A program made the position numbers and the translations under genes. Below are positions 14,991-48,003 of a stretch of DNA of 64,000 nt, piece after piece (position 1 is the stretch's first letter; each line of letters opens with the position of its first letter). The notes below the pieces were generated by a model. The model saw only the letters and a list, made by a program, of their open reading frames with translations. It had not been told where the DNA came from and searched no databases. This DNA comes from Stegostoma tigrinum (Eukaryota), in assembly GCF_030684315.1 (NCBI RefSeq), contig NC_081372.1, positions 21,419,869 through 21,483,868 on the forward strand. Direction: 5' to 3'.

Positions 14991-15042
14991 GTAATGGGGG
15001 GAGGGGCCAAACTGGAAATTTAAGAATGAAGTTAAAGGGAAA

Positions 15043-26808: not shown

Positions 26809-28499
26809 AAGAAAGATTGGGTCAACTGGGCCCAGTATTAACTGCAGTTGAGAATAATGTGTGGGATCTCATTAAGACATTTACAATTCCAACAGGAATG
26901 GACAGATGGGATGCACAAATGATGTTTCTCCTGGTTAGAGACTCCAGAACATAAGGTCACAGTCTCAGGATAGGATGGAGGCCATTTCTTCACTCAGATG
27001 CAGGTGAACCTGTGGAATTTTCTTCCCACTGAAGACTGCAGAGCCAACTCACTGAATATATTTAAGAAATAAATAGGTTACCAGTGATTAAAGGCATGGG
27101 GAGAGCTGAGGAGTCTGGTATTGAGATATAGAGGATATAGATGCTCTGCCATGATCATATTGCATGGCTGATGAGGCTCAATGGGCCAAATGGCCTGTCC
27201 ATGCTCCTGTTCTCTCTATTTCTAAACAAGACAGAATGGGAGGAGTGGGCACAATATGGGATGGGGCAGTACATTTTCATAAAATAATTTCAAGACCTTC
27301 TGGAATCAGGCATCATGAGTATACTGTAAAAACCACCTGTTTGATAATAGTTTTCGGCAGAATTCATTTCAAAGAGTATTGCATCGCATGAATATTTGCC
27401 AATCTATCTGCTGTTAACACGCCAAGATGAATGAAGTAATATGTGTGCATTACAGCATGAGTCAGGACCATCTGTTCAAAAAAAACAAAGTGTCATTTCA
27501 CCTCAGTCGATTTCTCAGGAACTATTTATTTTCTTATTTTTAAAGCTTCCAATGTTAGCATTGCAGATTTTCTGTGTTCTCACTGGTCCCAATAGACAGT
27601 CCTGCCAGAGATCACAACTGCTCTGATGACAACTTCCATTCAGGCAGCCATTCAATTTTACCATTGGATGCTGATCTGGTAATGTTTAACTAATGAATTT
27701 CTCTTGCCACTTCAAAGTGTGCTGAGAAGAGAAGTGAATTCATAACGTTTCGGTACACGCGTATGATGATGGGCAACAGTAATTTCATTCCCTCATTCTG
27801 AACCTTGCCCTGTCAGCAGCTTACTTCTACACTATGAAAGCAATGCTGCTCTCCTGTCTAAACATTCTCTCATTTTCAAGCAAGCCAACTCAGATCCATT
27901 TGCAGTGGAGATTAGGTCCAAATTGGCAGTCTGAACGATTACTTTTTTTTATGGAGTCTGGCAATTCCATTATTTCTCCATCAGAATTGTCCCCAGACAT
28001 TCCCAAGTAACATTTCCAGCTGTTGAGAACAGACAATGAAAAGTCAAAATTTTGTCAATATTTACTATTCTTCATGAAATCAAACAGAAAGCATAATATT
28101 AGAAAAATTCAAAGTGATAGTTCCAAGAATTTTGAATTCGTATCTCTAATCTTTTCCCTACTTCCTTCCAGTATTCACCATTGACCTCTTCTGCCAAGGC
28201 AATAAGATCATCTATTCCATAGACATCTCCGTAAATACTTAAATATGTAAAGTACAGAATAAGTATTACACTTCGACTTTCAGAATTCCCCATTATAAAA
28301 GTGTCAATTTTATTAGGAAACATGTCACTTTCACAGTAGCCCCTGTTGTTTTACCTGAGTTGCTTGAGACCAACGAAAATACCCTCAAACTGCAAACATG
28401 ACTCAAGCAGTAATTGGGACAGAATCTTATCAGGGCCAGAGTGATGTGGATCTCTAAGTTCACATCTGATTTGCCCCAGGATTTGTTCCAGTTGTGTCA

Positions 28500-29355
28500 A
28501 CTTCTCATATCGTCTCCTTAAGATTTCAAAATCTATCTACCTCTTTTCTTAAATACTTTCAGTGATCTAGCCTTATTATTACTCCGAGATTCAGACTTCC
28601 ACACAAACATGACTCTATGCGAGAAAAATAATTGTTTCACATCTCAGTCTTAAATTATTCTGTAATATATCTCCTTGTTCAAGATTCCCCCACTTGTAGA
28701 AACATCTTCGCAATATCTCAGCTGTCAGAATCACACAGAATCTCGTATGTTCCAATAAGATCACCCCTCATTCTTCTAAACAGAAATGAATGCACACCTG
28801 GACTGGTTGGTCTTTCTTGGTAAGTCAATCACTTCATTCCAGGAATCGGGCTAGTGAATCTCTTTTGGACTGTCTCCAATGTTAAATAAGGGGTCAAGAT
28901 ACAGTTCCACCAACACCCTTGACAGCTGTAACAAGGCTGTCCTATTTTTAAACCATCCAGCAATAAAGGGTAAAATTCCTTTTGCTTCTTAATTACTTGA
29001 AACTTTTGTATGTACAAGAACAACCAAATCTTTCTGTGCTGCACCTTTTTAGAATCCATTTAAATATCAGTCTACTTTTTGATTTTAGCGCATGACCATC
29101 GACTTCCCTACATTAAACAACATTCGCCACATTTTTGCCCATTTACTGAACCCATTTGCATCCACTTGCAAATTGCTTATGTCCCCTTTCACAACATGCA
29201 CACCTATCTATTTTTGTGTCATTAACAAATTTGGATAAATTACTCTGCTCCACCCTCCAAGTCGTTAACAAAGACAGTTAATAATTGAGACTCTAGCTCT
29301 GAGCTTTGTGAGACTCCACGAGTTATGTCTTTCCAATCTGAAAAAAACCCATGAA
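28500..29355 (-). mobile_element. Degenerate CR1 fragment
   Basis: Minus ORF 28829-29059 ends LETVQKRFTSPIPGMK; ataagatcacccctcattcttctaaa (RMRGDLI on the minus strand). Confidence 0.75.
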
Positions 29356-29364
29356 TCTTGGCAA

Positions 29365-29525
29365 AAAAAAACCCGAAGAACTGCCGATGCTGGAAATCAA
29401 AAACAAAAACAGAAATTGTGGGAATATCTCAGCAAATATTTGTGGCAGCATTTGTGGAGAGAAAGCAGAATTAATATTTCGGGTCCAGAGACCCTTGTTC
29501 AAAAGGAAGAAAGTTCTGGAATCGA
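29365..29525 (-). repeat. Short Penelope-terminus-like repeat
   Basis: Minus strand TTGAACA-agggtctctggaccc-GAAA-TATT-AATT; stem II intact, core mutated. Confidence 0.7.
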
Positions 29526-29627
29526 CACAATAGGAAGTATACGATTGCATTAGCAAGGTTGCAGAGATTTACGAGGATGTGCCTGGGCCGGGGAGTTTCA
29601 GACATGAAGAGAAATTAGATAGACTGG

Positions 29628-29817
29628 GATAACACAGTGTGAGCTGGAGGAACACAGCAGGCCAGGCAGCATCAAAGGAGCAGCAAAGTTGATGTTTCAG
29701 GTCACGACCGTTCTTCTGAAATGGGGCCGAAATGGCAACCGAAACATTAACTCTTTTTTCCTTCACAGACGCTGCCAGACCTGCTGAGCTTTTCCAGCAA
29801 TTCTGTTTTCATTCAGA
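29628..29817. repeat. Back-to-back pair of two Penelope-terminus subtypes inserted in a CR1 scrap
   Basis: 29628-29715 is the reverse complement of the 12900-12990 type; 29735-29817 is the + strand of the 11283 type (ccgaaacattaactc). Confidence 0.65.
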
Positions 29818-30831
29818 ATATTTAGATGTTTGTTTTTAACTGGTGCAGATTCAATGGGCTGAAGGGCCTTTCCCTGTGCTGAAGACCACAACATAATCAC
29901 TCTATAATGTGGAGCCTTTCCCAACCTCAGGACATCCAAAAATGCTTTACAGATGATGAAGTATGTTCTTTTAAAGACTAGTCACTGTTTTAATGTCAGT
30001 GCAGTAATAGTAATAGAACTGTTCCCAATACTTGGGTACATGTACAACATTAATGTCAATGTGTACTACCTTGTGCTCGAGCTGAAAACAAACAAATCCT
30101 ACCAGCACAGTGATATGGCAATTTTCCTGTCAACACAAGGTTGAAAGTTTTATCCCCAGAACATCATTAATTGATTTCTGAAAATCCACATAAATTGTAT
30201 TTTTCAAAGAGCTTCCATCCCAAGCAGTTCCTGTCTGTTAAGAAATCAATCTGTGGAAATCTAAACATGGTTTTCTCTAAAATTAACCTATGTTACCAAT
30301 TATAGCTAATTGGCGATAATAGAGAGGACTGTTGAAATGGTCTGTCTCAAATGAGACAGGTTCCATTGAAGGTGGGAAAAACTTTGTTACATTAAAGCCG
30401 AAATTGTGAAACTGAAAATGGTTGAGGTATTTATTTTCCTCTTATTTGTCCTTGGTGGTCTAATCTAAAAAGTGTGATCTTGTTATAAAATCAGGTTTCT
30501 TCCTGAGTTTGTTAAAAGTCAAACGGAGGGAACATACAGAATTGACCTGTTTAGTAGCTAGGAATTCCCAGTTAAGACTGCCCGTCTAAAATCCAGCAGA
30601 TGTGTTAGTTTGATTCTTAAACAACTTTGCTTCTTTATTCTAATATTTTTCTTTCTCAGTTTCCTGGTTTATAACAAAAATAACAGTGCCTCATCTGTTC
30701 TAAAATGTACACAGTCAGGCTGTTAATATACAAGTATCTGCTAAGCAGCCTCTCTCTGTCAAATTGTCAGGATTTGGCCTTTTCACTGCCTCACTCTGAG
30801 TTTGATTCCCAATCAGGGAATAATTCTTTAA

Positions 30832-31050
30832 CTAAGTGCAGAGGTAGCGGCCCTAACACTGGGTCAGAACGTCTAGGTTCAAGTTTCAAAAACCCTGGAG
30901 GTGTGTCATAATATATTCAAAAAAAATTCTCGAATGGGATTTTGTTGTGCAGTGGTAATGTCCATACCTCTGTGCTAGGATGTTTGGTTTCAAGTCATAA
31001 CTGCCAGGGTGGTGTGTCATAACAAATTCAAAACACTGATTGAAAATTAC
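30832..31050 (+). mobile_element. Two tandem short tRNA-derived SINE relics
   Basis: Two related units: gtgcagaggtagc...ggttcaagt...ggtgtgtcataa and gtgcagtggtaat...gtttcaagt...ggtgtgtcataa (A- and B-box-like). Confidence 0.6.
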
Positions 31051-32981
31051 TCATAAGTACCTATTGTTACAAAAATGCTTTATAGTTTTGCAGTGTTAAG
31101 CACATAGACTAACACAATACAATACTGTGCCTTCTGAACTTTCTTTAAAGTTCAGTATCATGCTTCATAAAAATAATATCTCAATGTAATGTTCATCATA
31201 TATTACTAATCAAGAAATCCCAGGAGGTTAATTTTCTGAAATCATGATGAATACGATTTAATCTGTGTTTCGCATGAGCTTCATTTATTGTATCATTACT
31301 GATGTAATGAACCTGCGATAGATTTACTGTTTAATTTATAACTTAGGTCCACAAGATTCATTCAAAGAATTCTTGTACAGCTTCCAAAATTATGACAAAA
31401 TGACAGACTTTCAGTTTATTTAAATACTATTATCAATAATCCTTCTCTGTTATTTTTCATTTGAAAAGGAGGTGATCTAATTAATATGAGTGCCATGCCA
31501 TAATTGCTTCACCTTACAGGTGACAGATGAATTCCTGATGTTTAAAATAGTGAACTGACAGTAACTTAAAAGCTTACGTCCATTGTTGGCAGTTTCTATT
31601 CTAACTGATGGTTTATTTTTTATTTTCATTTGTAGTTTTGTTCCCAACTGTCCCTAAAGTGTTGACTCTGTCTATACACAATTGGTCCCCTCAATATTTT
31701 GTGTCTATGTCATCGGACATCAGACTGTGATTCAGAAATTCTACTCACAACCTAAACACCAATTTGGCTAGAGTCTTGTATACTAGTAATGCAAATACCT
31801 CATGGTATTACAGCAACAAAATTTTAATCTCTACTCATGGTGTTCTTTCCAGAAAATATGAGTGAGCATAAAATCAGCATTTTATCCTTCTTGCTGTTCA
31901 CCAAGCATCAGCTGATGCTCACATTAATTCAGGAGTGTCTCCCCAGTATTAACCCAATGCTGAAAATAAATGTAGCTTTGGACTTTGATTGTTCAAAATA
32001 TAATTTTTCCAAAATCTAAGGCTGAATACTGAGGTCACATGTTCATTGACATTATGGCATACTTGCATGAAGACCTTTAATGAAAGATGCGAACCCCTGC
32101 ACCATTCTGTCACATGAAATACACAAAATAGAGATTCTTGACTCTAAACAGATATTCAAAGTCATATTTTCATTACTATTAATCCGTGGCGGTTACTGTA
32201 GGTGGCCTGTGATTATTATATTCCACCATGGGGCTCAATCCCCATTCCAGCTGAAGTAGATTCAGACATGCCCCCTCTTCCTACCAGTGGAGGAAATTAA
32301 GGTACTGTACATGGGTTAGACTTACCTTCAACAACAAAAAGAAATACTTCACCAGAAATAATTTATATCTTGAACGCTTTGATGTTTGAAGTATTTGCAT
32401 TGCAACTATCGAAAGGCACAAATGGTTACAAAAATATTGTCAATTTCTGCACAATGATAGTCACCCACACAAATAACTTAGAACACAATAAGGACAAGAA
32501 AATAAAAAATTCTAAATAGCCAAAAGTCAAAAGTTCTACATAGAATGATGAATAAACTTTTAACTAACAATTTAAAAGACCTTTTGAAGACTTTTGCTTT
32601 TTTGGGGACGATAACTAAAATGGAAGTGGAATTATTACAACTGCAATGTCAGGAAAATCAAGTGCAGCCTATTGTTGAGCTATTACTCTTTAAAGCTGTA
32701 AGAGGGAGAATTTGGGACTGAGCAGCACTGAAAAGCTTTCAAGTTAGGGAAATCCCTGCTGATAACAGCCCTCCTATCAGTTGAGTTGCAAAGTGCTAAA
32801 GCACTTTAAGTAAAGGTTGCTGAAGAAAAGCATCCCTCACTTCCTCTCTCTCCATGTGGAGAAAGACAGATAAAACAAGAAAGATTGCTAGAAAGAATTC
32901 TAAAATAAGAGAAGTCCAGGTCTACATGAGCAAATTTCAAAGCAAAGATTGACCAACAGCCTCCTGACAACACAATCTCAC

Positions 32982-33060
32982 CATTGCGGTAAAATACTGA
33001 GGCATGATTATCAGCACACTCTTTCCAGTTAAGTTGTGATAGTAGAGTTAAGTCATGTTT
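32982..33060 (-). CDS. Candidate exon of the putative minus-strand gene (KHDLTLLSQLNWKECADNHASVFYRN)
   Basis: Acceptor ttttcacattttgtcag; donor AATG|gtgaga; 79 nt, phase 0 to 1. Confidence 0.45.
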
Positions 33061-33319
33061 CTGACAAAATGTGAAAACAATACCTACATATTCTTCTTTC
33101 CGCTGGCATTGATACAAATACATTGACGTGAAAGATTAGCAGCAATGCACTGCTCTCATTACTTAACCAAAGGCAATATGCCTAAGACTAGAGGTATACT
33201 GTTAACCTGTAAAATTCAAATCAATGCAAGACTCACATGTAGTCAAAGTAATTTCAGCTCATTTTTACACTCCTGTTCAGGATTTAAGAAAACACTTGTC
33301 TTTGATAAGCATGTCATTA

Positions 33320-33960
33320 GATCATAAGAAGTAGGTGTAAACATAGACCATTTATTCTTAGGAGCCTGCTGTGCCATTCAATAATCTGATAATGGCTTTA
33401 TCTCCACAATCCTTGACTCCTTTGTTGATTAAAAATTTTTCTTGAATAACATAATGAATGATCTGGCCTTTGCTGCTCTCAGAGAAGAGAATTCGAAAAT
33501 TGAGAAACTCTGAGTTTAAACTGCTCCCCATCTTCATCTCAAATCGAGACTTTACATTTTTGAAGACTGCCCCATAATTCTGAATTCCCTTACAAATAGA
33601 AGCAGCTTCCTAGTATCCATTCTGAGAAGCTCCCTCAGAAGCTTATATATTTCAAATGGGATCACTTGTTTTCTACTGTATAGCCTTTCCTCTTAAGGCA
33701 ATCTCTTCATTCAGAAATCAGCCAAGTGAACCTTCTCTGAACCGCGTCCAATGCAATCCCTCTTTAAGAAAGGAGACCAAAACTCTACGCGACACTCCAG
33801 ATGTGGTCACATTAAGGTCTTGAGCAGCTATAGCAATACTCTACTTTTATACTCCATTCCATTTAAAGCTAATCTTTCTCTCATCTCTTCAAGCTTTTTT
33901 TTCAACTGACCCTTCCCATAATCTTTTTTGACATTTAGCACAACCACCAAACACAGACAT
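33320..33960 (-). mobile_element. Degenerate CR1 3' fragment
   Basis: ggagaccaaaactctacgcgacactccagatgtggtcac (reverse of RPHLECRVEFWSP); tail atcataagaagtagg. Confidence 0.7.
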
Positions 33961-34263
33961 ATCCATATCATTTTATTCTGTTCTTCCCTCTGACTTAAAG
34001 AAATGGAGGGACATAAAGGGTAAAAAAAAATCACTCTTTATAGTCCCTTGCTTCACCAGGCATAAATGAAGATATATCATATAGTCTCCTACTCTAACAC
34101 ATTTAATTCTGTATTTTTCATATATTTATGGCTGCATTTTAGCCGTTTCTTTTGTTTTACAATATTTCTGACTGAGATATATTTGGTTGCTATCACTGCT
34201 ATTGTCCATGTGGCCATTTAATTCCTTTCTTTTTCAAGTAGAGAAAGAAGACAATGAAAGAAG

Positions 34264-34800
34264 GTGTTAAAGGCAGGATCAGTTGTACCAGAGGAGAAGT
34301 ATTGCATCCATCCCTCCCAATGCAGCTATGTCTACATAAGGAGTGACACCTATTGGAGAAGGTCTGAGGAAAATGGCCTCATCAGTGAATTGTGCCATCT
34401 GCTGGAATTTGCATCACAGACAAGTTTCACCACAGGGATGGAATCGATCATGAATCAAGGTCAACAAAGCATTGAGTGGTTGGCCTCAGGCTCATTCTGA
34501 ACTGTGACAGGGGCCAGGGGTCACATCAATTAATCAACGAAGAAGATACAAGCAAATCTCTGACAAACATCCTCATCATTTTTCCATGGCAAAACAGCAA
34601 CAAATTCTGAGGGCTACTGCTATTTTTTGGAATTCTGCAAAGCTCAGGGCAATATTATTGGTACCCCTGTGGACATCTATACAAAAATAAACAAAAATGT
34701 CTTCAATAGCTTTGCAGTCCATCAATGTACACAGCAGTCACAGTTCTTCAATCCTAAGTTGATTGCCTGTGACTGAGTTATTTGAAGAAAAAGCCATCCT
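34264..34800 (+). mobile_element. Relic of a PIF/Harbinger (HARBI1-like) transposase
   Basis: ISELCHLLE and LASGSF in ORF 34264-34500, and FCKAQGNIIGTPVDI from 34633, follow the order of recalled Harbinger motifs (..YASGSFQ.. then FPxVQGAIDGTHV). Heavily decayed. Confidence 0.5.
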
Positions 34801-34857
34801 GGAACGATGGTTCTTTTAGGAAACAGAGGCCACCATCTTTGACTCTCCTTAAAAAAA

Positions 34858-35420
34858 CCAACAGCAATTTACATTAGTCGAGCACCTTTAATGAAATCGA
34901 ACATCCCAAGTTGCTGCACAAGTGCATTAAAGTAAGACATGTAACCACTTAAGAAGATGTTGTCAGATGATCAAAAGCTTAGTGAAGAGGTAAGTTTTCA
35001 GGAGTGCTTTAAAAGGAGAAAGCAGTGTGTAGAGGTGGAAAAATTTAGGGAGGATATGCCAGAGCTTGGAGCATAGGCAACTGAAGAAGTGGTAACCAAT
35101 GGTCAAGCAATTATATTATCACACAGAACGCACACGAAGCCAGAATTTGGTGAGCACATGTATCTCAGCAAAATATGGGATTGCAGGAAATTACAGAGAC
35201 AGGATGGCCAACAAAGGAATTGAAAACATTCGAATTTTAATCTCAAGGTGTTGCTTGACTCAGAGCAAATATAGATCAGCAAGCACATGGATGTCAGGGA
35301 AATGGGACTTGCTGCAAGTCATGATACAGGCAGCAGAGTTTTAAAGAATCTTAGATGTACAGAGGGTAGAATATGGAAAAGCAGCCATAGATCATTGCAA
35401 TGTTCAAGTACAGCAACTAA
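34858..35420 (-). mobile_element. L2-type LINE 3' relic
   Basis: caacagcaatttacatt...gcacctttaatg...aacatcccaag tail followed by tttagggaggatatgccagagcttggagc; related to 8318-8445. Confidence 0.55.
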
Positions 35421-35644
35421 CCAAAGATAGTACAAGGAGTGTGTCATCAACAGGTTCACTACTCAGCATACAGTTGGCAGCCTTTGCAGCAACTCAGATC
35501 CTTTCATGGATTTGGGCGAGCAAATGTTATAGTCTAATCCCACTGTGCCTCTGTCATTACTGTTGTCACTTGTATGCATCTTAAATTTATCATCGAGAAA
35601 AGCCCAATGAGGAATGTAGGGGAAGATGTCTTGAGTATACTTAC

Positions 35645-35692
35645 AGGTTTCCTCTTGAAGACAGAAGCCTGTTTAGATTTGGCTGCGTGCAA
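35645..35692 (-). CDS. Candidate exon (LHAAKSKQASVFKRKP)
   Basis: Acceptor atactcag; donor CCT|gtaagt; 48 nt, phase 0-0. Confidence 0.42.
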
Positions 35693-35807
35693 CTGAGTAT
35701 ACATTTAACATATTTAGCTTTGGTGTAAAAGTTAAAGTATGAATGAGATTTAAACACATCTTATGCTGACTTCCCATCAGAAACAATAATTTACACTGTC
35801 CTATCAC

Positions 35808-35845
35808 CTGCAACAATATGTAAACATTGGCAAGAGCAGGATTGT
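35808..35845 (-). CDS. Candidate exon (D/NPALANVYILLQ)
   Basis: Acceptor tttttatttaccacag; donor CAG|gtgata; 38 nt, phase 1 to 0. Confidence 0.45.
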
Positions 35846-36264
35846 CTGTGGTAAATAAAAATATAGACTTAGAATCAAAGACAGCTAGGGAGGCCATTCC
35901 AAAGTGAAAGGTTAAGTCAGTGCTCACTGTCAAAGATGCAAGAGAAGGAATATGGGGGGATATAATGGAGACTATGGATAAAAGAACAAAAATATGGGAA
36001 AGGACACTATCATTGAAATTATCATTGAGGATGCCAAATGTTTTGAAATTGTAAACTGGTGTAGGGAAATAACACAGCAGATTGGCAAAGGCAAGGATGA
36101 TAGGAAATTGGGGCCTAATTTTTCTTGCTGTGAAGAACTAAAGTAGAGAGGCCAGCCTGGAGCGTTTGGAGCATTTGGGCTAACTTTGGTCTCTCTTTTA
36201 TCAAGAGGAATAGTGACCAACTAAGACTAAAGTGTCAAAATTAAGTTCACTTCCAACTTCTCAC

Positions 36265-36320
36265 CTGAGACTTGCTCAATGTCATTATCAAATGAATCTT
36301 GGTATAGGCGGCCAACAAAG
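36265..36320 (-). CDS. Candidate exon (FVGRLYQDSFDNDIEQVS)
   Basis: Acceptor gctgacag; donor CAG|gtgaga; 56 nt, phase 2 to 1, in frame with the next candidate. Confidence 0.45.
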
Positions 36321-36604
36321 CTGTCAGCATCAAGTAAATTGACATCCAATGAGAATGCTTGCATGACATGTGCCAAAGGCAAAAATCAACTTCACGGCTA
36401 GCAATTTTGACCCAACTGTGAAACACTGGTTTTATTCCCTCACTTAATATTCCTCTCCTTTGACATCACTAGAGAGTAAGGCTGACAAGGTACAAGATCA
36501 GAACTACACCTTATCCAATCAGCTTCACAATGGGCAGATTAAGTTACAATTAGCTCCATTGAGCTTTAAAGTACGAATAAAAAATCAGTAGCAGTAGGTA
36601 TGAG

Positions 36605-37530
36605 CTAAACATAAGAAGTAGGAACTGGAGTAGGCCATTTCGACAATCAAGCCTGCCCTGCCATTCTTGGAGATCAGAGTTGATCCGCTCCAGGCCTCAA
36701 CTCCTATTTTGTTCCAGCCTCTCATAGCCCCTCAACTCTTCCATATTGCAAAAATATATCTATTTCCTCCTTAAATACATTCAGTGATCCAGCACAACTC
36801 TTTGGGATACAGAATTCCAGATATTCACCACCATCTGCGAGGAGAAATTCCTTCAGATTTATGTTTTAAATAGCTGTCCCCTTTTTCAGTAAATATATCT
36901 CCTATTACTGGAGACATCTTCTCACCATCTACCCTGTCAAGCTCTGTCAGAGTTTTTTATTGTTTTTATTCTCTTGTGGGACATGGGCATTATTGGCTGG
37001 CCAGCATTTATTACCCTTTCAAGGTGCCCTTGAAAAGATGGTGGTGATTCTTCTAAACTCTAATGAATAAAGCCCTGACATGTTTAACCACTCTTATCTA
37101 ATCAATCTCTCCATCTGAAGAATCAGTCAAGTTAATTTCATTGAAACAAGAATCATATAATCCATAGAGTACAGAAAGAGGCCACTTAGGCCATCGAAAC
37201 CACACCAACCCTTTGACAGCGTCCCATCCAATTTGCTTAACCCTCCACTTCCGATGACTAACCCACCTAGCTTGTACATCCATGGATATGATGGGGAAAT
37301 TTAGCATGGCCAGTCTACCTAATCTTACATGACCTTGGACTGTGGAAGGAAACCAGAGCACCCAGAGGAAAGCAATGCAAACATGGAGAGAATGTGCAAA
37401 CTCCACACAGACAGTCACCCGTGGCTGGAATAGAACCGGGGTCTCCAGCACTGTGAGGCTGCACCACTAACCACTGAGACACCATGCCACCCCATAGATT
37501 CCCTAGGATCTCTTCTGAACTGCCTCCAAA
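36605..37530 (-). mobile_element. CR1 3' relic carrying a family-B tail fragment (about 36955-37047) and an HE1 insertion
   Basis: Tail aacataagaagtaggaactggagtaggccatt; cagaattccagatattcacc; inner piece ggctggccagcatttattaccc matches the family-B tail. Confidence 0.7.
37150..37493 (-). mobile_element. HE1-type V-SINE
   Basis: gagagaatgtgcaaactccacacagacagtcaccc...ctgtgaggc...ctaaccactgag; reverse complement of the 26338 copy. Confidence 0.88.
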
Positions 37531-37624
37531 AGGATAGAGACAGGTGTTGGAGCAAAGCAAAAGTATTTAGGTGTCTGAGTACATTGATAATTAAAACTAG
37601 CACAGAGCAATAAAACATTATTAC

Positions 37625-38085
37625 GAACAAGTGAATGCGATATTGACCTTAATGTCAAAGGGATTGGAATTTTAAAGTGTAGACGGACATGATTCTTGGT
37701 CAGAGCCCATCTAGAAAACTATGCTCAGCTTTTTGCACCAAACCTCAAAAGAACACATCTGTACTGAAGAGGTGAACCAGATCCATGAGGATATCATGAG
37801 TGAAGCAGTTAGCTGATGAGGCAGGTTATTGTAACTTTGGCTGCTATTCCCTTGCGTTTAAAAGCTGAGGGGCAATTTAATCAAATTGTTTAAAATAGTA
37901 ACAAAGCAAATTAATAAAATGTTTCCTCTGGTATAATCTTCAAAATTGATAGGTTTTTTTATCACTAAAGCATCAAGGGATATGGTGCAAAGGTGAGTAA
38001 TTGAAATTGAGGTACAGTTCAGTCATAATCAAGCTGAATGGTGGAACAGGCTCAAGGGACTGAATGGTAAATTCCTCTTCCTATA
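37625..38085 (+). mobile_element. Highly degenerate CR1 3' relic
   Basis: atcaagggatatgg...gctgaatggtggaacaggctcaagggactgaatgg 3' UTR resembling 17930-18030. Confidence 0.6.
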
Positions 38086-39366
38086 TAAAGTTCACAACAA
38101 AATTTAGAGAAGCTTGCGAACTTCCATGAGAAATTAACAACTGTTATAAAATAAAAGGGATCTAAGTGCCCTACAAATACATTGAGAAGTCAGAGCATGT
38201 GAAATAATTTGCTAGCTGTGGAAAGTAAAGATTCAACTGCATTAGACATTGAATACTAAAAGGAACCAAAAGAGAATAGAAGAAATAAATGCATCTATTG
38301 CTTAAACCTATCACTTAAATACCTACAATGTCTATTGTACTGACAGTTCTATTCCATATGAACAATGCAGTGATCTCATACAGCCTTACTAGGATTACCT
38401 CTGCAACAATTCACATACCTTGAATGCCCATCTTTGATGTGCTAATGGTTGATTCTCAACTATCAGAAGCAACTTCTGGGCCTTATTCAAATGGAGTTAT
38501 GTTTAAAGCCTTAACAAAGATGAGTGTATTACGTAGATGCATTTTATCCATATGCTGTCAATGCTCTGGAACCTAAACTGATGTTCTTTCTAAATAAGGT
38601 GACTGTTAGGTTTCAGTAGGAACCTCTTGCAGCTTGTATGCCCCACTGGAGTCTGGTATGCATGGTTATCAAAGTCAGAACTGTGAGGTTGCATCAAGAC
38701 CTAGTTTGATGGAACTGTATGCAGGAAACAAGCAACACTTTGTAGCTAGCAAACTTGTCCATTTCTCTGTTGAACAATTTTACTAAATTCCCAAAATAAT
38801 TGCAATTATAAAGTAGGGGAAGGAGTCAAAAGTATAAAATTTCAAAGCAGTTAAACAAATGCTTCCTAATGGCTTAGTCAATGAGGGTAAGCTATATTGA
38901 CAAAGTATGTCCAGGAAGTTATTTGATCTCACCTGGGCGTTATAACTGATCACAGCAGCTCCAATTTAAAGAGGTGAAAAGCAGCGGGATTTGCAAACAC
39001 TATCCCGCAGTGCCCTGCTGGAACATTGCTTGGTGAGAAACAAATTGAATAGTTTACAAATGACCTGAATATACACACTGGTTGTGCTCACACTTTGGGC
39101 AGGGTACCAGAAGTTACCTGTCAATCAGTACTTGTCAATACTTTAAGAAAGAAAACTAACAAGGAAGGAAAAAACACACAATCTTGTTTTACTTATGGAC
39201 TGTAGCCAATTCTTTTAGGGTGGAGGGATGTGGACTAAGCTTATGGAGAAGAGTATGGAACACATTCACAGAAATGATGACAGGAATGAGAAGCTGTTTG
39301 TCTGAAGAAGAAATATGAGAAAATGAAGGTTGATTTTAACTTGGCCCACCAAGGGATAATAATTAC

Positions 39367-39448
39367 CAGTGGGGATAATTGTTTGACCATTAGCCTCTGC
39401 ACATGTTACTTTATCACAGCTAATTTTCAAAGTTTCTTGTCGTTGCAT
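39367..39448 (-). CDS. Candidate exon (MQRQETLKISCDKVTCAEANGQTIIPT)
   Basis: Acceptor ttttgtttgcacttccacag; donor CTG|gtaatt; 82 nt, phase 0 to 1, in frame with 38459-38419. Confidence 0.42.
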
Positions 39449-40784
39449 CTGTGGAAGTGCAAACAAAATAGTGTGATCAGAAAGTTTTGACACACATCGA
39501 CCTTCATACAGCAGTTCAATCTCAACGTACGTCAGAAACAGCAAATTCCTGTGCAAGTGTATTCTTTGGCTCTTGCATTCTCAGTGATTGCAGGAGTTAT
39601 GCTGCTGTCAGTTTGATACACATTCATTTAAATCCCAAATTGGCCATCTGGTTTAGGCTCAGTAAAACCTAGCAGTTGTAAAGAATTTGATGAACCTTTA
39701 TTACACATCTGTAATAACTGTGTTTGGCACTCTCTCAGAGGAATGCACGTTGGCCTTCTGAATATAAATCAACTCTGGACATTGATTTTTAGAGAAGAAA
39801 AGCTCAGCAATAATACTGAGCACTGTCAGTGTACATTTTCACTGAAACCTTCATTGTAATGCAGAAGTCAGAAAACAACTGAGGACCTAACCCTAAGCTG
39901 GTTACAAATTGGGCAGTGCAAGACCCCTTCAGGAAAATTATCTCATGTTCCCACATTTCCAATTTTTTAAATGTGTCAATTAGCAGCAGACTCTGCTTGT
40001 GTATGTAGAACCACAAACACTGAGCTCCCTCTTGGCCAGAGGAGTTAGATTCACAGCCAGACAATATAAACTCACAGCTGCCAGCTGTAAGCTCGGTAGC
40101 TAGAGTATAACCACAGCCTTAAACACCAACCGTGAAACACGACTCCCAAGAGTTATCGATTATTTTTCATTTCAGAACATGTCCATTGCCCTAAAGCCCT
40201 TTTGATTTTTGGGACAGTCCAGTCGATGCTCATTTGTCCTTCCCACCTCTGGAAATTTCAGGTGATTAACCATGTTGACAATGCCCTCATTAAAAGTTTG
40301 TATATGGCATGCACATGTACAGGATGAGGTTTGATCATGATGTGCTGATAATCAAAAAGAGTTGCAGCTGATGGTTACAGAGACAAAGCTGGCACATTTC
40401 AAACAGTTTCACGCATGTGAGTAGTGAAACCTAATGTGCTTTGTTTACATGATTGGCATTCTGAATAGAGAGCTATCTACGAAATAACCCTGAAATTTCT
40501 TCCTTCCTTAGAAGCTCAAGGTTTGTTTCATTAACTTTCATTTTATTACAAATTTCCAAGGAAATGATATCTTTAATGCTTAGTCACATGCATCACCAAA
40601 AGAATGCAAATTTCAAGAATGGAGTTAGACCAGCGTTTAATAGAAGATCCCAGTGAATGTGCCTTTTGGCCAAACATCCTTTCATCTAAATAGTATTATC
40701 GTTTTATTTCTTTGACAGCACATCCTCAAACCTGCAGCTCTACCAGGTCAAAGGACTTAGAGTAGAATACAGAATAGCCTTTAT

Positions 40785-41040
40785 TGTCACTGATGGGAAC
40801 ACCATCACCTTCAGGATTCCCTCAAGTCCCACATCTTTCTGGCTTAGATATGTATAAAAATTCTTTCTATAATCTGGTTGATTTCCTGGAACTCCCCGTT
40901 TACCAGCACTGTGGGAGCATCAACGTTATACAGGACTTCTGTGGTCAGAAGGCAAATCGCTACCACCTTCTGAAGAATACTTGGGGATTGACAAAAAATG
41001 CTGTCATTGCCAGTAACACCCACATCCTCATAAAGATTTA
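40785..41040 (+). mobile_element. Family-B LINE 3' end relic
   Basis: tcctggaactcccc...cagcactgtggg...caccttctgaag...aaatgctgtcattgccagtaacacccacatcc; reverse complement of 20135-20380. Confidence 0.65.
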
Positions 41041-41394
41041 ATTTCATCTGAAGGATAAATTAACACCTCTTTGAAAACTGAGTCAATAGAGATCTTTTTT
41101 CCCAAAAATATTGTTATTATAAATTTTGTAAAAGAATTGACAAAATTTCAAATTTTACATTGCGTTGATTAAAATTTGACTCCACTTCTTTGAATATATA
41201 ATGTAGTGTTCTGAGATGCCTTGCCAACTGAAGGTATATTAATTCCATACCTGGCATGTCACACATAAAGCCTGAGTGGAGTTTTGCATGAGTTTTGCCC
41301 ATGAATGACCTAGAGTGACAGACTGTGACGGTGCTGTTGAACTTTTATGGTGGCTGCATCTCTCAGCACATGGTCCTAATATTGAACCTTGCCA

Positions 41395-41695
41395 GTGGGC
41401 AGTATGGTAGCTCAGTGTTTAGCACCGCTGCCTCACCATGCCAGGAACCCAGGTTCAATTCCAACCTCAGTCTGTGTGGAGTTTGCATGTTCTTCCTGTG
41501 TGTGGGTTTCCTCCTACAGCCCAAAGGTGTCCAACTAGGTGAATTTGCCATGCTAAATTGCCCATAGTGTTCAAGAATTCGTAGATTAGGTGGGATATAT
41601 CAAGATGGGGGTGGGTCTGGGTGGGATGCTGTGAGGGTTAGTGTGGACTTGTTGGGCTGAAGGGCCTATTTCCACATTGTAGGAATTCTATGATT
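41395..41695 (+). mobile_element. HE1-type V-SINE
   Basis: Same head, V-domain and tail as 26338-26661. Confidence 0.88.
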
Positions 41696-42159
41696 TGGTC
41701 AGGGATACTGCTTGACCACCGTTCACTGAGCTGATGGTCTTCCAGCAGTAGTTGATACATAAACTATGAAGATCTGCAATACGTAACTTTCAATTTAATG
41801 TATGTTTTACACTATACTATAATTACTGTTGTGAGACTCGATTATTGTCAGGAGTCCAGAAGGTAATATCTGAAATGTTGACTTTCCTTTCCTCCAGTTA
41901 CTGCTTGGCTTGTTGTGTTCTTCCAGCCTCCTGTTTGTCTGCTGGAGATTAACGTCGACCCCCAAACAAAAAATCTGCAACTCTTCGCAGAACGTCTTTG
42001 CAATGGCACATTCTAGAAGAAAATGAGAGACGATTGTTACTACAGAAAACAAAAAAAATGGCCTGTATTGTTTGAAATTAGATTGCAAGTAGTAACAGTT
42101 CTTTAATATCGGTGGAAATGAGCCGATTTCCATCAGTCTGGGCAGTGTGTGTGTCATTT

Positions 42160-42250
42160 GAACAGAAATAGCTGGCGAAACTCAGCAGGTCCGGCGACAG
42201 CTGTTGAGAGAAAACCGAATTAACGTTTCGGGTCCAGTGACAGTTCTGAA
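42160..42250 (-). repeat. Short Penelope-terminus-like repeat, CpGs retained
   Basis: ctcagcaggtccggcgacagc...ttaacgtttcgggtccagtgac; GAAACGTT intact, CTGANGA part truncated. Confidence 0.7.
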
Positions 42251-42256
42251 CACTAA

Positions 42257-42260
<4 letters not shown>

Positions 42261-42292
<32 letters not shown>
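42261..42292. repeat. (TG)16 microsatellite
   Basis: Seen directly. Confidence 0.95.
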
Positions 42293-42296
<4 letters not shown>

Positions 42297-42399
42297 ATTT
42301 CTAATTCAATAGCACTAGTTTAACGTTCAGAAAGGTGCCTTTATAACCGCCCAGACTCTGTAACTTAAATAGTTTGGCTCTGATGTTTTCATCACCGAC

Positions 42400-42646
42400 C
42401 AGGCCGATACTCAAATGTCAGTATGATCACGCAAGCCAGGGGGTGTGTGCGAAACAGTTCCCGGGCGAATAGCTCGGGGCTAGACTCCTGTCTGTACTGC
42501 ATCAGAGAACGCAGCATCCCCGAGTGGCGATGGGATGTTATGAATATTTGGGTACCCTCTCCCTGTCTGAGACGGTATAATATTTCTACCTGCTTCCGAA
42601 TGAATTGTAAGCAAACATTAGGGCAGTGACTCTCCGAGCTTTCAGG
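42400..42646 (-). CDS. Candidate 5' exon of the putative minus-strand gene
   Basis: Acceptor ctctcattgcag; 82 open codons (PESSESHCPNVC...MLRSLMQYRQESSPELFARELFRTHPLACVIILTFEYRP); donor CTG|gtcggt; inside the CpG island. Confidence 0.38.
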
Positions 42647-42854
42647 CTGCAATGAGAGATCTCACAATCTGAACAATTTCTGACTGACACATTGCGTTCC
42701 GATCATTCCTCGCTTGCTGGTTCACAGTATTCCTTCCAAACTTTAGCTTTCCCTTCACATTACAGCCTTGGTAATTATTTCTTCCGTTTCCCACCCCCCC
42801 CCCCAACCCAAGCAGCCAAACTGCGGTTGTAGTGCGCACTGCGGACAGTGTTTA

Positions 42855-42985
42855 ACGGAAGGGGTGATTGGAACCTGAAACGTTAACTCTGATTTCACTC
42901 TACAATGCTGCCAAACCCCGCTGAGCTTTTCCAGCAATTTCTGTTTTTGTTTCTGATTTCCAGTATCCGCAAGTTATTTCGCTTT
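42855..42985 (+). repeat. Short Penelope-terminus-like repeat
   Basis: cctgaaacgttaactctgatttc...gctgagctttttccagcaatttctgtttttgtttctgatttccagtatccgc. Confidence 0.72.
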
Positions 42986-44076
42986 GTTAAAAAGAAATAA
43001 ATCAGTCTGACTAACCTGTCTAATTAAACTGGGACCAGGAGCTGTGCCACTGCGCAACACAGCCCCCATTCCAACCTGCCCCGCGTCGTGGAAATGTCCT
43101 TTCACCCTTTCCTCTTGCCTGGCATGTTATTAGATAATCCAGTAGTGTGAGGTAGTGTTTTGAAATATAAAATCACCTTCCACCTTCTTTCTCACTCTCT
43201 AGCCCAGAAATATCTGCCGCCTAACAACCCAATCTTCAGCATCAAATAAATAAAAACATGCTTGCTGAGTGAGCAGACTGTTTAATCTGTCGAAACCCTT
43301 TATTCTTAACTTCTTGCCCCCTCTCCCCTTTCGAGTTGGATTACATTTCTGCAAATTTGTTCGCCTGCGGTTTCTCTCCCTTTAATAATCTGCAATTAAA
43401 CGGGAAGGTACAGAGAGGAGGGCGCTGTGAGCCTGCTGCAGAAGGGCTCTAAAACCGGGGAATATCTGTGCTTGAAATGAGTCAGTCATTCCGAGGGGAT
43501 CAGAAGTTTGGCTCGTGCCCCATCATGGTAGTGAGGGTTACTCGTCACTGAGGGGCTCGTTGAATCTTGGAGAAGGAGGGAGGAAGGCAGGATGACTGCT
43601 CCCTCATTGGCAGCGCTGTGAGGATAGGAGGGGTTGGGGGGGGGGTTGCCATTGAACTAAATATTAACGGAACGCCCACTTTTGCACGGGTCCGCTCCTT
43701 CTTGGAAGTGGAGGTAGACGCGATCAGCGCTGACAACAGAGAGCTGGAAGCGTGTGGCTCATCGCTCGCCTCCCCAACCAACAGCCCGCACCATCTCACA
43801 TCTCTGAGTTGCTGACCTGTCGTCTCTGAAAACTAGGACTCTCCCTGCACACCCTTCTCTCTCTCTCTCTCCCCACCCCACCCTCTGCACTCTCTCCTTA
43901 ACGCTGGCCCCAGTGACACCTGTGAACTCTGAACCGGACCACTCAATTTTGGCAGTGAATTCCGCAAGCTTGCATCTTCTTCTTCTTCACCTCCACAACC
44001 CCCAACCGCCCCGCCGTTTGTGGGGTGTGAGTGAAGAGGCAGTAAGTTGCAGATTGCCCTCAGTGAGGCTCTCACC

Positions 44077-44255
44077 ATGCTGGAAAACACGGCGGGCTCT
44101 GGCCCAGTCATCCTACCTTGTCTGCTGCTGACCACTATCCTCCTCGCTCTGATTGATGCCAAGGGCGGCTTCTACACCCCTTACCGATACAACCTTTTCA
44201 CCTCAGGGTCTAGCCCCAGCCTGAAAGGAGCGGGACGAGTCTCCGGCCGGCACAA
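44077..44255 (+). CDS. EMILIN3: EMILIN-3 exon 1 (signal peptide and N-terminus)
   Basis: Kozak-like CACC-ATG at 44077; hydrophobic leader LPCLLLTTILLALIDA then KGGFYTPYRYNLFTSG...GRHK; donor AA|gtgagt (phase 2). Confidence 0.9.
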
Positions 44256-44664
44256 GTGAGTCCCTTTTTCAGCTTTGCTCAAGTCAGTAATTCTTCAAAC
44301 CGCCCGCAGTGTGAAGCTTCCACATATTTGATGTAATTTTTATGCATAATGTTGCTTTTCATTATTTGCACGCCAAACGCGACGGGCAGCAATGTGCACT
44401 TCTGATTTATTTCCACCTTCACAAACCGTATTTATATACTCTATCTCCTGATCGATTTAGAAAGAGCACAGTTTTATGCATCATAGAAAATTGCACGTGC
44501 TTTATTTTTCGCAAGAAAACCTCGTTGTTATCAAATCCGTGCCTTTGTTCAAAGTTTCCTTTCTGCGAGGTGGGGAGGAGAACTGGCATCTAGTGTTGCT
44601 GCTGTAAATTGCTGCAGTTACTGAGACAGAGGGAACAAAAATAAATGTTTTTTTTTAACTGCAG

Positions 44665-44790
44665 GAACTATTGTGCTTATATTGTGAAGAAAAATGTCAC
44701 TTGCACAATGCAGGACGGGACAGATACCTATGTGAAAGCTGAGTACCGCCAGTGTGCTTGGGGCCAGCTGAAGTGTCCAGGAGTGGTCAT
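44665..44790 (+). CDS. EMILIN3: EMILIN-3 exon 2 (EMI domain, first half)
   Basis: Acceptor ttttttaactgcag; NYCAYIVKKNVTCTMQDGTDTYVKAEYRQCAWGQLKCPGVV; donor AT|gtaagt. YVKAEYRQC matches EMILIN3 as I recall it better than EMILIN1/2. Missing from the ORF track. Confidence 0.93.
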
Positions 44791-45461
44791 GTAAGTCTTC
44801 AAAACCCCCCAAACTGTGCGCCAACACCACATCAGTAACACAGGAGGCGTCCGAGAGGAAACGGGCTGCTAATTTGCAATTACAGTTCATGGTGTCTGTA
44901 TATTTGTTCCCAGTCTAGAGGTGCCTGCGAACGCTGTAGACATTTCTTTTAAATAAAAGACCTTGTCGCAGTAAAATGCGCTATCCAGATTTATGTTTTT
45001 TTTGTACGGGACCCTCAATCTATCGGGGGGGTGGGAAAGATTTTAATCTGGGAAAAATCATTTTAAGTTGGAAGCAGTGACTTTTTTCCAATTGCGCGTC
45101 GCCTTTAAACAAAACCACAAGTGATTTTTCATGGTTTCAAAATAAACCTAGGGTCGCTTCACGTGCACAAAAGAATACCAGCTTTAAATGACTGCTTTTG
45201 TGCAACATTCAATGGAGGATTGCGCCGAATGCTCTGAGCTGATTAAAACTTGATGGTTGAATGTTCCTAGCTTAATATTACTGAGTGTGTTCGCATCCTG
45301 TGAAAATTAATACACTCGACTATTTTAAAAAGCGGGATGGTTTGCGTACGTTGATATAACAATTTGAGACAGTTGCCCTAAATTGACAAAACATCATGAA
45401 ATAAGATTCTGAGAAGCTGCACTGCTGAGGGAAAGGAAACTTTCTGTGCAGTGGCGCCGTT

Positions 45462-45491
45462 CTGCCATCTGCTGGTCAGTAAAGGACTGCC
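45462..45491 (-). promoter_or_regulatory. Predicted CTCF site with upstream module
   Basis: Minus strand GGCAGTCC-TTTAC-TGA-CCAGCAGATGGCAG; the core fits CCASYAGRKGGCRS exactly. Confidence 0.55.
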
Positions 45492-45789
45492 GCGCGTCCT
45501 CAACTCCAATACCCAATCTCAGAAAATGCCAGGTATTTTTCATCGGAAAATACCTTTGACGGCTTTAATGATATTGATATGATTTAGCACCACAATTACC
45601 TATTTAAATGTCATTACATTCAATTCTTGCTAGAGGTCGCATTGAACAAAGACTCCCACTTAAGACTGAACTTGAAAGAGTAAATCATGTTCCCTGGCAC
45701 ATTTAATCCGCTATAGTACAGTCAAAACAATATTTTGACGGAGAAAGGTGGAGTTTTCTAATTGCGTTAGCTTTGTTGGATACGCCAGA

Positions 45790-46175
45790 GAGAGACACGA
45801 AAAACGATTTGATCACTTTACAGGTAGGAGGTTAACTGGAGACATTCAAAAATTGTGAAGGATTTTCATGAAATCAAGAGATGTTTTAACTGGTGAGTAG
45901 ACCAGTAACCAGAGCACAGATTTAAGCTCATTGGCAAGAATTAGAAGGGGTAATTATGAAAAAATAGCTTTTTTATTACACTTGCAATGCACAGCCTGAA
46001 AGGGTGCTGCAAATGGTGTACAATTCACAAAGGAATTGGACCTTACATTTGGTAAGAATAAAAAAAATGCAAGGCTATGTGGAGCAACATGTATAAAAGT
46101 GGAATGATTATGATGACTTTAAAGAAACAGCTAGACATATTGGGTTGTTTGGCCTGTTCCATATTATAGGACTCA
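45790..46175 (+). mobile_element. Degenerate CR1 3' relic in intron 2
   Basis: ggagacattcaaaattgtgaaggg...accagagcacagatttaag...gcacagcctgaaagggtg...tgggttgtttggcctgttcc. Confidence 0.6.
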
Positions 46176-47574
46176 ATCATTTGCTTGTCTAATACAAGAG
46201 GACACTGTTACCTAAACAGGCATATCTTTCAAATCGTAAGGACACCAGTAGGGTGGCATCATTGTCATGAGGGTGGCATTCCAGTTTACAATGAGACAGC
46301 TTTCAATTGAAAGGCAAGGATAGTGCATATGCTGGCAAACATAGACTGGCACTAACAGTGCAGCAGTTGATGATCCACCAGGTATTAACGTAACCAGTGA
46401 ATGAGATGCAAAATATAAGAAGCATATAAGGTCATTGTTTTGGCCAGGTTCTGTTACTTGCATAGCTTCTTCCAAAAACTGAGCAGATGCTACCACACAC
46501 TCCAAAGAATGAAGGGCAGCTGCTGTTGAAATGCAGGTTGGCTACTAGTGCAAGTTATGCTGCAGATGTTACATCTGCTGTAGCAGAAATTTACACAATG
46601 TGTTTTCTAGTTCAGAGGTTTTTTACCTACATAACTGTAAAGAAAACAAATAATTTGTTATGTCAGATGCTGTCAGCAGTATAGTAATATCAATCTTAAT
46701 AGGAGTAATTCCATATCCCAGATTATACAAACAATAGTGTCTACCTTAGCATCAATGTAAATCAAAGTTATAGTGGTTTATGGTTTCCTGTATTGATAGC
46801 TACCAGGGAAATTATGTAACAGTTCCTTGTGGTATTGTTATAATTTATTGTTTGCAGTATTAGCAGTAATGAGTTTCGGTCATACTTAGTGCAGTTATTC
46901 TCATGGCCACTTTTCAGCTCAATGTCCAATAAACACAGTAACTAGTAGCTGAAGAAGTGTCTGGTGTGTTCCTTACATTGTTGTTTGCTGATGCCATTTA
47001 TGTATTCTGTGAAGTTAAACATTTTTATGTCTGATGTAAAGGAGGGTGGAATATTTTCATGTCTAAACTAGTGAGAAGTATATGTTCCCTAGATGAAGGG
47101 AAGATCCCTGGATACATAGTTAGGTAGTCATATTTGGACATTTCTTCATTGGCATGGTACTGATAGTTGGTTAGTACACCAATAGTATTGCGTGAAGTGT
47201 TCTATAAACAGGAGTTAGCTGAGAAAGTATAAAATTAGAATGTTAAAATAGCTAAGGCAGACTTCTCTGACTGATAAGCTGCCATGAAATATTATAATAA
47301 TAATAATGTTCTTCACTACATCTGTTAAGCATAGACAGCTGCTTGGAAAAGGACATCAAATTGAATTGGGTATGTCTGATTTTGTTGACTCTTATTAAAA
47401 CTACTAGCTGACTTGGAGTTTCAGATTATCATAGCAATAAAACTGTATTAGGATTCCAGTTTGGCTTCAAAGAAATAACAATCTGAGAGAATACTGCTCA
47501 CACCTTTAGAATTGTTGGTAACTTTCCAAGAAATTTCACTTTGAACTCCAGCATCAAAACCAGGGCATCCTAAG

Positions 47575-47890
47575 TAACCATAGATACAGGCCATAATGAC
47601 CCTGTAAAGAGCATCCTACCTAGGCCCAATCCCCACCTGATCCCACATTTCCCATGGCTAATCCACCTAGCCCGCACAACCCTGGACACTACCGGGCAAT
47701 TTAGCATGATCAGTCCATCTGATGTGCACATCTTTGGACTGTGGGGGGGAAACTGGAGCCCCCAGAGGAAACCCACACAGGCACAGAGAGAACATGCAAA
47801 CTCCACACCATCAGTCGCCCAGGCTGAAATCCAACCTGGATCTCTGTCACTGTGAGGCAGCATTGCCAATCACTGAGCCACCATGTCACC
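47575..47890 (-). mobile_element. HE1-type V-SINE in intron 2
   Basis: gaggaaacccacacaggcacagagagaacatgcaaactccacac...ctgtgaggcagc...cactgagccacc. Confidence 0.88.
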
Positions 47891-48003
47891 ATAAATTATG
47901 GTGAACAAATCTTCCCAAAGATTTTACCATTAAATTACCTATTGATCCGTGGATCAATTCACTTTAAATACTTAATTCAGAGAAGAAAATTCGTCAGCTG
48001 TAT

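What the first reader, a model, noticed from the sequence alone, without database searches (positions are those of the whole stretch)
28179..42646. Hidden minus-strand micro-exon gene head-to-head with EMILIN3
Seen: in the non-repeat gaps, AG/GT-bounded stop-free segments of mostly 24-82 nt chain with matching phases. 36468-36444, 36320-36265, 35845-35808, 35692-35645, 33206-33168, 33060-32982, 32405-32353, 30585-30547, 28389-28355 and 28237-28179 splice to ...MSKERNINFVGRLYQDSFDNDIEQVSDNPALANVYILLQLHAAKSKQASVFKRKPVNSIPLVLGILPLKHDLTLLSQLNWKECADNHASVFYRNVAMQILQTSKRSRYKLFLTGSLNWEFLATKQFEGIFVGLKQLSIYGDVYGIDDLIALAEEVN. Segments 39448-39367 and 38459-38419 give MQRQETLKISCDKVTCAEANGQTIIPTVENQPLAHQRWAFK. 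A 247-nt open exon candidate lies in the CpG island. I recognise no homolog. Inference: an unannotated, lineage-restricted or decaying gene sharing a bidirectional promoter with EMILIN3. Caveat: I chose among alternative sites, several donors are weak, and the 40076-39448 and 38419-36468 joins and the 3' end are unresolved.
Basis: partly seen in the sequence, partly recalled or inferred. Interest (0 to 1): 0.7.

Follow-up and report, generated by a model that had tools for sequence, protein, structure and literature searches.

The report
Likely orphan shark gene beside EMILIN3
Next to the shark EMILIN3 gene, on the opposite strand, a dozen short DNA segments join into one unbroken reading frame and likely form a real, unrecorded gene for a small soluble protein with no relative that we could find, one piece of it taken from an old repeated element, but no RNA or second-species data were available to prove it.

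Summary
All 12 segments are at the stated coordinates, AG/GT-bounded and splice open as described. An acceptor 13 nt further upstream (36481) closes one 'unresolved' join, giving one frame of 218-232 residues that ends at 27972. An open chain alone proves nothing: 53 of 85 control windows hold one with equal or better splice scores. But branch points (0 of 85 control chains reach the same mean), four introns of 107-123 nt (1 of 85) and codon composition (p 0.002-0.03 on the main measures; one model showed no signal) point to real exons. Splice sites are weaker than EMILIN3's. New: exon 33060-32982 is largely the 5' fragment of an old interspersed repeat with over 100 candidate copies. No homologue was found exon by exon, although whale-shark EMILIN3 was; the spliced protein was not searched whole. 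No RNA run was available. Verdict: likely (about 50%) a fast-evolving, unannotated protein-coding gene leaving EMILIN3's CpG island; decayed or non-coding 20%, chance 20%, diverged known gene 10%. These are small exons, not micro-exons. The scan had not noted this gene elsewhere; it had noted the gC1q tail of shark EMILIN3.

The parts
41750..45500 (.). CpG-rich domain spanning EMILIN3 exons 1-2 and the likely 5' end of the minus-strand gene
   Evidence: CpG o/e 0.42-0.94 in 250-nt steps against about 0.2 elsewhere
42400..42646 (-). candidate 5' exon (247 nt, open in one frame, in-frame ATGs at 42517 and 42502); unresolved, may be untranslated
   Evidence: single copy
41251..41309 (-). alternative upstream exon candidate that joins 42400 to 39448 in frame; speculative
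   Evidence: acceptor 1.5, donor 5.3 bits; open join
40076..40099 (-). alternative upstream 24-nt exon candidate; speculative
   Evidence: acceptor -1.5, donor 1.6 bits
39367..39448 (-). exon starting with ATG right after the strongest acceptor; likely first coding exon or internal exon
   Evidence: acceptor 6.9, donor 2.7; picked by every blind chain search; single copy
38933..38958 (-). added 26-nt exon candidate (goes with acceptor 38475 of the next exon)
   Evidence: donor 7.2 bits, picked; open join
38419..38475 (-). exon; acceptor at 38459 (reader) or 38475 (with the added exon)
   Evidence: donor 5.2; both versions keep the frame
36444..36481 (-). exon, 38 nt; acceptor moved from 36468 to 36481, which closes the join to 38419
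36265..36320 (-). exon, 56 nt, after a 123-nt intron
   Evidence: donor 7.2; single copy
35808..35845 (-). exon, 38 nt
   Evidence: acceptor 5.6, donor 3.3; single copy
35645..35692 (-). exon, 48 nt, after a 115-nt intron
33168..33206 (-). exon, 39 nt; weakest donor (-4.8 bits)
32982..33060 (-). exon, 79 nt, after a 107-nt intron; largely the 5' fragment of an old interspersed repeat
   Evidence: 6 other places at 84-93%; profile of 35 copies matches 33070-32989 at E 4.5e-14
32353..32405 (-). exon, 53 nt
   Evidence: poorest coding score
30547..30585 (-). exon, 39 nt, with a consensus branch point 23 nt upstream
28355..28389 (-). exon, 35 nt
   Evidence: single copy
28179..28237 (-). exon, 59 nt, after a 117-nt intron; alternative donor at 28162, or read-through to a stop at about 28100
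27525..28019 (-). likely last exon: 16 codons, stop at 27972, AATAAA at 27530
   Evidence: acceptor 3.8, AG-free zone 45 nt; stop and signal
44077..54679 (+). neighbour EMILIN3, exons 1-4 (two further exons lie beyond the window)
   Evidence: tblastn of P0002 at 96-98% identity

Best explanation
The stop-free AG/GT segments join into one open frame of 218-232 residues and are likely the exons of a real, single-copy, unannotated shark gene that is predicted to be transcribed away from EMILIN3 out of the same CpG island and would encode a small soluble intracellular protein, one exon of which is built from a fragment of an old interspersed repeat. Shown: the segments, the open frame, the shared CpG domain, the single-copy state of most exons, the repeat match, and the lack of a membrane-spanning stretch in the model. 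Inferred: transcription from about 42.5-43 kb on the minus strand, ordinary GT-AG splicing of 13-14 small exons, termination near 27.5 kb, and recruitment of the repeat fragment as a frame-bearing exon (79 nt, so skipping it would shift the frame). Weakly inferred, from general knowledge of such genes and not from a call: weak splice sites, AT-rich third codon positions, no homologue and absence from automatic annotation fit a fast-evolving, narrowly expressed gene, most likely of germ cells, whose product would act as a cytoplasmic or nuclear binding partner and not as an enzyme (about 25% for this last step).
For: Branch-point score of 13 acceptors 4.33 against 3.29 for AGs matched on acceptor score, p 0.003; AG-free zone of 20 nt or more in 11 of 13, p 0.027. 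Four of 11 introns are 107-123 nt; 1 of 85 control chains has four or more of 100-130 nt. GC1-GC2 z 2.5-2.7, G1 z 2.0-2.1, amino-acid composition z 1.9-2.3, with GC1-GC2 and G1 values like EMILIN3's. A stop and an AATAAA follow the next good acceptor. Highest 19-residue hydropathy 1.47. Continuous CpG domain.
Against: Splice sites are weak: mean acceptor 1.6 and donor 2.7 bits against 4.2 and 4.3 for EMILIN3's five introns; one donor scores -4.8. An open chain of this strength is common by chance (53 of 85). A crude gene finder does not single the region out (21 of 64 and 32 of 64 controls as high; the downstream lipin gene scores two to five times higher in three of four windows); with fixed exon number 6 of 86 controls, and 5 of 22 matched for unique DNA, score as high, and the 0 of 86 result came only after branch and AG-zone terms were added that I already knew favoured it. 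A codon model trained mostly on GPCR genes shows no signal (z 0.6, p 0.27). The coding score per base (0.018-0.024) is midway between non-coding (-0.023) and true exons (0.062). One exon is repeat DNA, and 17 of 36 aligned rows are open in that frame, so its openness is unremarkable. No homologue for the two exon queries although relatives at 89-95% were found for EMILIN3.
Confidence: 0.5

Rival explanations
1. The exons are real splice units but the protein is not: either a decaying (unitary) pseudogene or a spliced non-coding transcript running back from EMILIN3's promoter.
For: Weak splice sites, half-strength coding score, uncertain 5' and 3' ends with a second open frame and donor in the 28019 exon, a repeat-derived exon.
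Against: No stop or frameshift over 12-14 exons; codon-position bias above non-coding DNA.
Confidence: 0.2
2. There is no gene: the chain is a selection of chance AG/GT segments in intergenic DNA.
For: 53 of 85 control windows hold an equally strong open chain; gene-finder score unremarkable; several incompatible 5' solutions close the frame equally well; one segment is a repeat fragment; no homologue.
Against: Branch points, intron-length clustering and codon composition each lie at or beyond the edge of the control range; blind searches return to the same sites.
Confidence: 0.2
3. It is a diverged member of a known vertebrate gene family that exon-sized queries are too short to reveal.
For: All database searches used single exons with 11-27 real residues; only the profiles that I built locally saw the whole model. 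A 13-14-exon structure is more usual for old genes (general knowledge).
Against: No Pfam or NCBIfam family for 14, 13 and 13 exon-sized queries; no paralogue in the own genome; four families suggested by eye or by weak hits failed on the whole model; a repeat-derived frame-bearing exon is unusual in a conserved gene.
Confidence: 0.1

Closest known systems
Lineage-restricted and de novo genes near existing genes and transposable elements (PMC4860702; abstract start and passages read)
   Same: Lies beside an older gene on the opposite strand, contains transposon-like sequence, no homologue found.
   Different: Those cases rest on aligned non-coding orthologues and expression data, neither of which I have; this model has 13-14 exons, more than I recall for typical de novo genes.
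Exonised transposable elements in coding sequence (general knowledge; PMC13709765 seen only as a search listing)
   Same: An exon whose limits nearly coincide with the surviving part of a dispersed repeat, with good acceptor (5.0) and donor (4.3).
   Different: The repeat is unclassified; inclusion in RNA is not shown; 5'-only fragments also occur elsewhere (2 of 40 matches cover only the first 100 bases of the query).
Shark 27/36-nt micro-exon coiled-coil B30.2 genes
   Same: Hidden small-exon gene in a shark genome missed by annotation.
   Different: Exons here are 26-82 nt, of mixed phase, not repetitive, span 11.5 kb, and no B30.2-sized open frame follows in the window or the 500 kb downstream.

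Membership tests
Spliced protein-coding gene | Canonical GT-AG sites with branch points and one open frame | tested here: met
Spliced protein-coding gene | Coding composition like true exons of this genome | tested here: inconclusive
   above non-coding, below true exons, no signal
Spliced protein-coding gene | Spliced RNA exists | not testable with these tools
   the run search listed DNA-type holders only
Spliced protein-coding gene | Purifying selection across species | not testable with these tools
   no second shark genome is held; 0 of 7 differences fall in exons, 0.4 expected
Head-to-head pair with bidirectional promoter | Both 5' ends in one CpG island | tested here: met
   CpG o/e 0.42-0.94 over 41750-45500; the minus-strand 5' end is itself a prediction
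Head-to-head pair with bidirectional promoter | Start sites within about 1 kb, transcription both ways | not testable with these tools
   no start-site data; candidate exon start is 1.4 kb from EMILIN3's ATG
Micro-exon gene | Most exons under about 30 nt | tested here: not met
Shark 27/36-nt B30.2 rod genes (AI notes) | Symmetric phase-1 exons of 27 and 36 nt with heptad repeats | tested here: not met
   mixed phases and sizes
De novo gene | Orthologous DNA non-coding in outgroups | not testable with these tools
   no related genome held
Ricin-type lectin domain (PF00652) | Match to the QxW subdomain profile | tested here: not met
   no hit at this locus among 32 matches; local profile -2.5 and -3.3 bits, reached by about a third of shuffles
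Death domain (PF00531) | Match to the six-helix domain profile | tested here: not met
   no hit at this locus among 36 matches; best local score 2.2 bits over 17 positions, 23 of 1000 shuffles as high
Lipoate ligase C-terminal domain (PF10437) | Match to the domain profile | tested here: not met
   PDB hit E 0.88; no hit at this locus; no local match
Mab-21/cGAS-like nucleotidyltransferases (PF03281) | Match to the family profile | tested here: not met
   no hit at this locus among 8 matches; 656 of 1000 shuffles score as high (profile from only 5 sequences)

The most novel reading that the evidence does not exclude
A 13-14-exon protein-coding gene that was assembled in the shark lineage from non-coding DNA behind EMILIN3's CpG island, with a transposon fragment fixed as an indispensable, frame-bearing coding exon: a fully built, many-exon de novo gene in the slowest-evolving vertebrate genomes.
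Probability: 0.12. Interest if true: 0.65.

Novelty: new member of a known kind. Interest (0 to 1): 0.3.

Why it matters
If real, it is a shark gene that automatic annotation of close relatives appears to miss, and a datable case of a repeat fragment turned into coding sequence; shark genomes change slowly enough for its origin to be traced. Without a function, expression or a second species it remains a gene-annotation lead more than a biological surprise.

Tried and rejected
No RNA holder listed; only DNA-type runs could be laid. Homologue searches with single-exon frames: 0 hits (1 candidate, 18 candidates, 0 of 1.84 billion representatives at E 0.001); these are weak because the queries hold only 18-26 real residues. 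Pfam and NCBIfam on exon-sized frames: no family; two weak hits at E 0.024 and 0.19 on longer frames were set aside as chance. PDB sequence search with 4 exon queries: best E 0.88 and 1.1, rejected. Plasmid tblastn: none. Rfam over 26000-45000: 0 matches at E 1. The ESM Atlas gave no answer. Ricin-type lectin, death domain, lipoate-ligase C-terminal and Mab-21 resemblances were rejected. The idea that the dispersed repeat copies are processed copies of this gene's RNA was rejected: a first profile of 6 copies gained 3.7 bits across the junction, but the profile of 35 copies scores spliced and unspliced alike (47.7 and 47.5; 42% of 500 random tails as high). Strand skew was uninformative and exon CpG only slightly raised (9 CpG, o/e 0.33 against 0.19). 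Synteny gave no name: no recognisable gene in 500 kb upstream, the only BRK-domain match on this contig is 20 Mb away, the nearest tyrosine-phosphatase match 3.4 Mb away. Paper searches for EMILIN3 with CHD6 and synteny (0 papers), with LPIN3, synteny and shark and with shark found no description of this gene; the one relevant paper (PMC7144352, passages read, figure not seen, supplements not opened) lists no such neighbour in its legend. No look-alike stretch among the scan's earlier findings.
Full report
Setting. The window is G000:C23:21419869-21483868 of a 3.2-Gb genome. Its plus-strand gene is EMILIN3: a protein named EMILIN-3 of whale shark maps in six exons at 96-98% identity, so this is a close shark relative. 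A lipin gene follows tail to tail (exons seen; the name LPIN3 is my recall from sequence and human gene order). The 500 kb on the other side show no recognisable gene.

The observation. DNA contigs from two samples of one study cover 29900-36600 with 7 substitutions and no indel. A blind chain search chose acceptor 36481 in place of 36468, which joins the two chains into one frame from the ATG at 39448. The next good acceptor downstream, 28019, gives 16 more codons, a stop at 27972 and AATAAA at 27530: 218 residues, or 232 with an added 26-nt exon 38958-38933 and acceptor 38475. The 3' end has alternatives (donor 28162, read-through), and the 5' end has at least two different open solutions through the CpG island, which also shows how cheaply frames close.

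Is it more than chance? The mere chain is not. Of 85 control windows of 12 kb (both strands of the upstream 500 kb; one of 86 gave no chain), 53 hold a 12-segment open chain with a summed splice score of 51.3 or more; this chain sums to 49.3. A crude gene finder with free exon number ranks the region with the controls (21 of 64 and 32 of 64 as high at two penalties) while the lipin gene stands out. Splice sites are weaker than EMILIN3's (means 1.6 and 2.7 bits against 4.2 and 4.3). Four other features do stand out. Intron lengths: four of 107-123 nt, matched by 1 of 85 control chains. Codon composition: GC1-GC2, G1 and amino-acid usage lie about 2-2.7 SD above stop-free non-coding DNA, while T1, A2 and G2 are weaker; a periodic model trained on 84 coding stretches of this genome gives z 2.3-2.9, but only half the per-base score of true exons; a GPCR-weighted codon model gave nothing (z 0.6). 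Together I put real spliced exons at about 80% and an intact coding gene at about 60%.

A repeat inside the chain. The core of exon 33060-32982 matches six other places at 84-93% and shows double depth in the DNA contigs. One such copy finds 154 candidates, of which all 40 scored match, 39 besides itself at 69-85%. A profile of 35 copies, conserved over roughly 280 bases with a sharp 5' limit, matches 33070-32989 at E 4.5e-14 and no further. The window's fragment is 86% identical to the majority of the others, among the best six of 36 rows (partly because several copies were found with it), and falls to 30% past the exon. So only the exon-sized 5' part survives, which fits retention by exonisation but also plain truncation; another repeat begins just inside the next intron. 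The copies are not processed copies of this gene. The other stretches tested are single copy: 35600-36560, 27260-28480, 38100-40780 and 42300-42860; for 29830-32950 only the best 40 of 232 candidates were scored, none over an exon.

Identity. Exon-sized queries found nothing in 5.8 billion proteins, 1.84 billion representatives, Pfam, NCBIfam, PDB or the own genome. The control with EMILIN3's first 44 residues found three shark-type proteins at 89-95%, so close relatives' proteomes are at least partly held; but that control had 44 real residues against 18 and 26, so the blanks suggest, and do not show, that relatives' annotations lack this gene. The spliced protein was never searched whole against a library, which leaves a distant family open. 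Four resemblances were tested on the whole model with local profiles and failed. The model is 26 kDa, pI 8.3, with no 19-residue stretch above hydropathy 1.47: soluble, with no evident membrane anchor.

How it most likely works. CpG is undepleted from 41750 to 45500 without a break, so one unmethylated island likely serves EMILIN3 and a divergent transcript (inferred). That transcript would be spliced through 13-14 small exons, several in pairs around minimal introns, and translated into a small soluble protein. Its weak sites, AT-rich third positions (GC3 0.34) and lack of relatives fit a fast-evolving gene of narrow, probably germ-cell, expression; this last step rests on general knowledge only.

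Comparison and novelty. It works like other lineage-restricted genes that sit beside older genes and contain transposon sequence (PMC4860702, passages read), but membership in 'de novo' needs outgroup DNA that I could not see. It is not a micro-exon gene in the strict sense and not one of the 27/36-nt B30.2 genes noted earlier in this scan. Five paper searches found no description of it; most subscription papers are not searched, and I opened no supplements. Verdict: a probable new orphan gene, a known kind of thing, interest 0.3.

Noticed in passing
L014:3873-4013 and L014:7170-7505 (just beyond the window's right end): This shark EMILIN3 continues into two further exons that encode a gC1q domain (P0002 and P0003 carry PF00386; mapped), whereas a review describes EMILIN-3 as lacking gC1q (PMC13326518, passages read). 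The plus-strand frame 52793-54721 runs past its donor at about 54679 to a stop, mimicking the short form.
   Followed up: partly
window 32989-33070; L158-L187: An old, unclassified interspersed repeat of roughly 280 bases with a sharp 5' limit and at least 154 candidate copies; no Rfam match at the window's fragment.
   Followed up: partly
G000:C23:20919869-21419868 (L004-L013, L067-L106): About 500 kb without a recognisable gene upstream of this locus; the only BRK-domain match on the contig is 20 Mb away, so the human EMILIN3-CHD6 neighbourhood (recalled) is not kept here.
   Followed up: partly
L016-L019 (about 25-58 kb beyond the window's right end), minus strand: A lipin gene lies tail to tail with EMILIN3; used as positive control.
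   Followed up: partly
window 14169-17938, 6016-7147, 20200-24100: LINE-type retrotransposon remains with long open frames (for example 16227-17726, 499 codons) fill most of the window's left half; family names not tested.
   Followed up: no
L134:1501-1620: An exon with a ricin-type lectin subdomain on contig C14 that does not look like the glycosyltransferase-type matches; its surroundings show no similarity to the model.
   Followed up: partly
window 27893-28054, minus strand: The likely last exon is also open in a second frame through to a donor near 27942, which could point to an alternative or ancestral 3' end.
   Followed up: no
L009 (about 55.5-56.9 kb left of the window): A 1.4-kb GT-rich tandem array with long open frames on both strands.
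   Followed up: no
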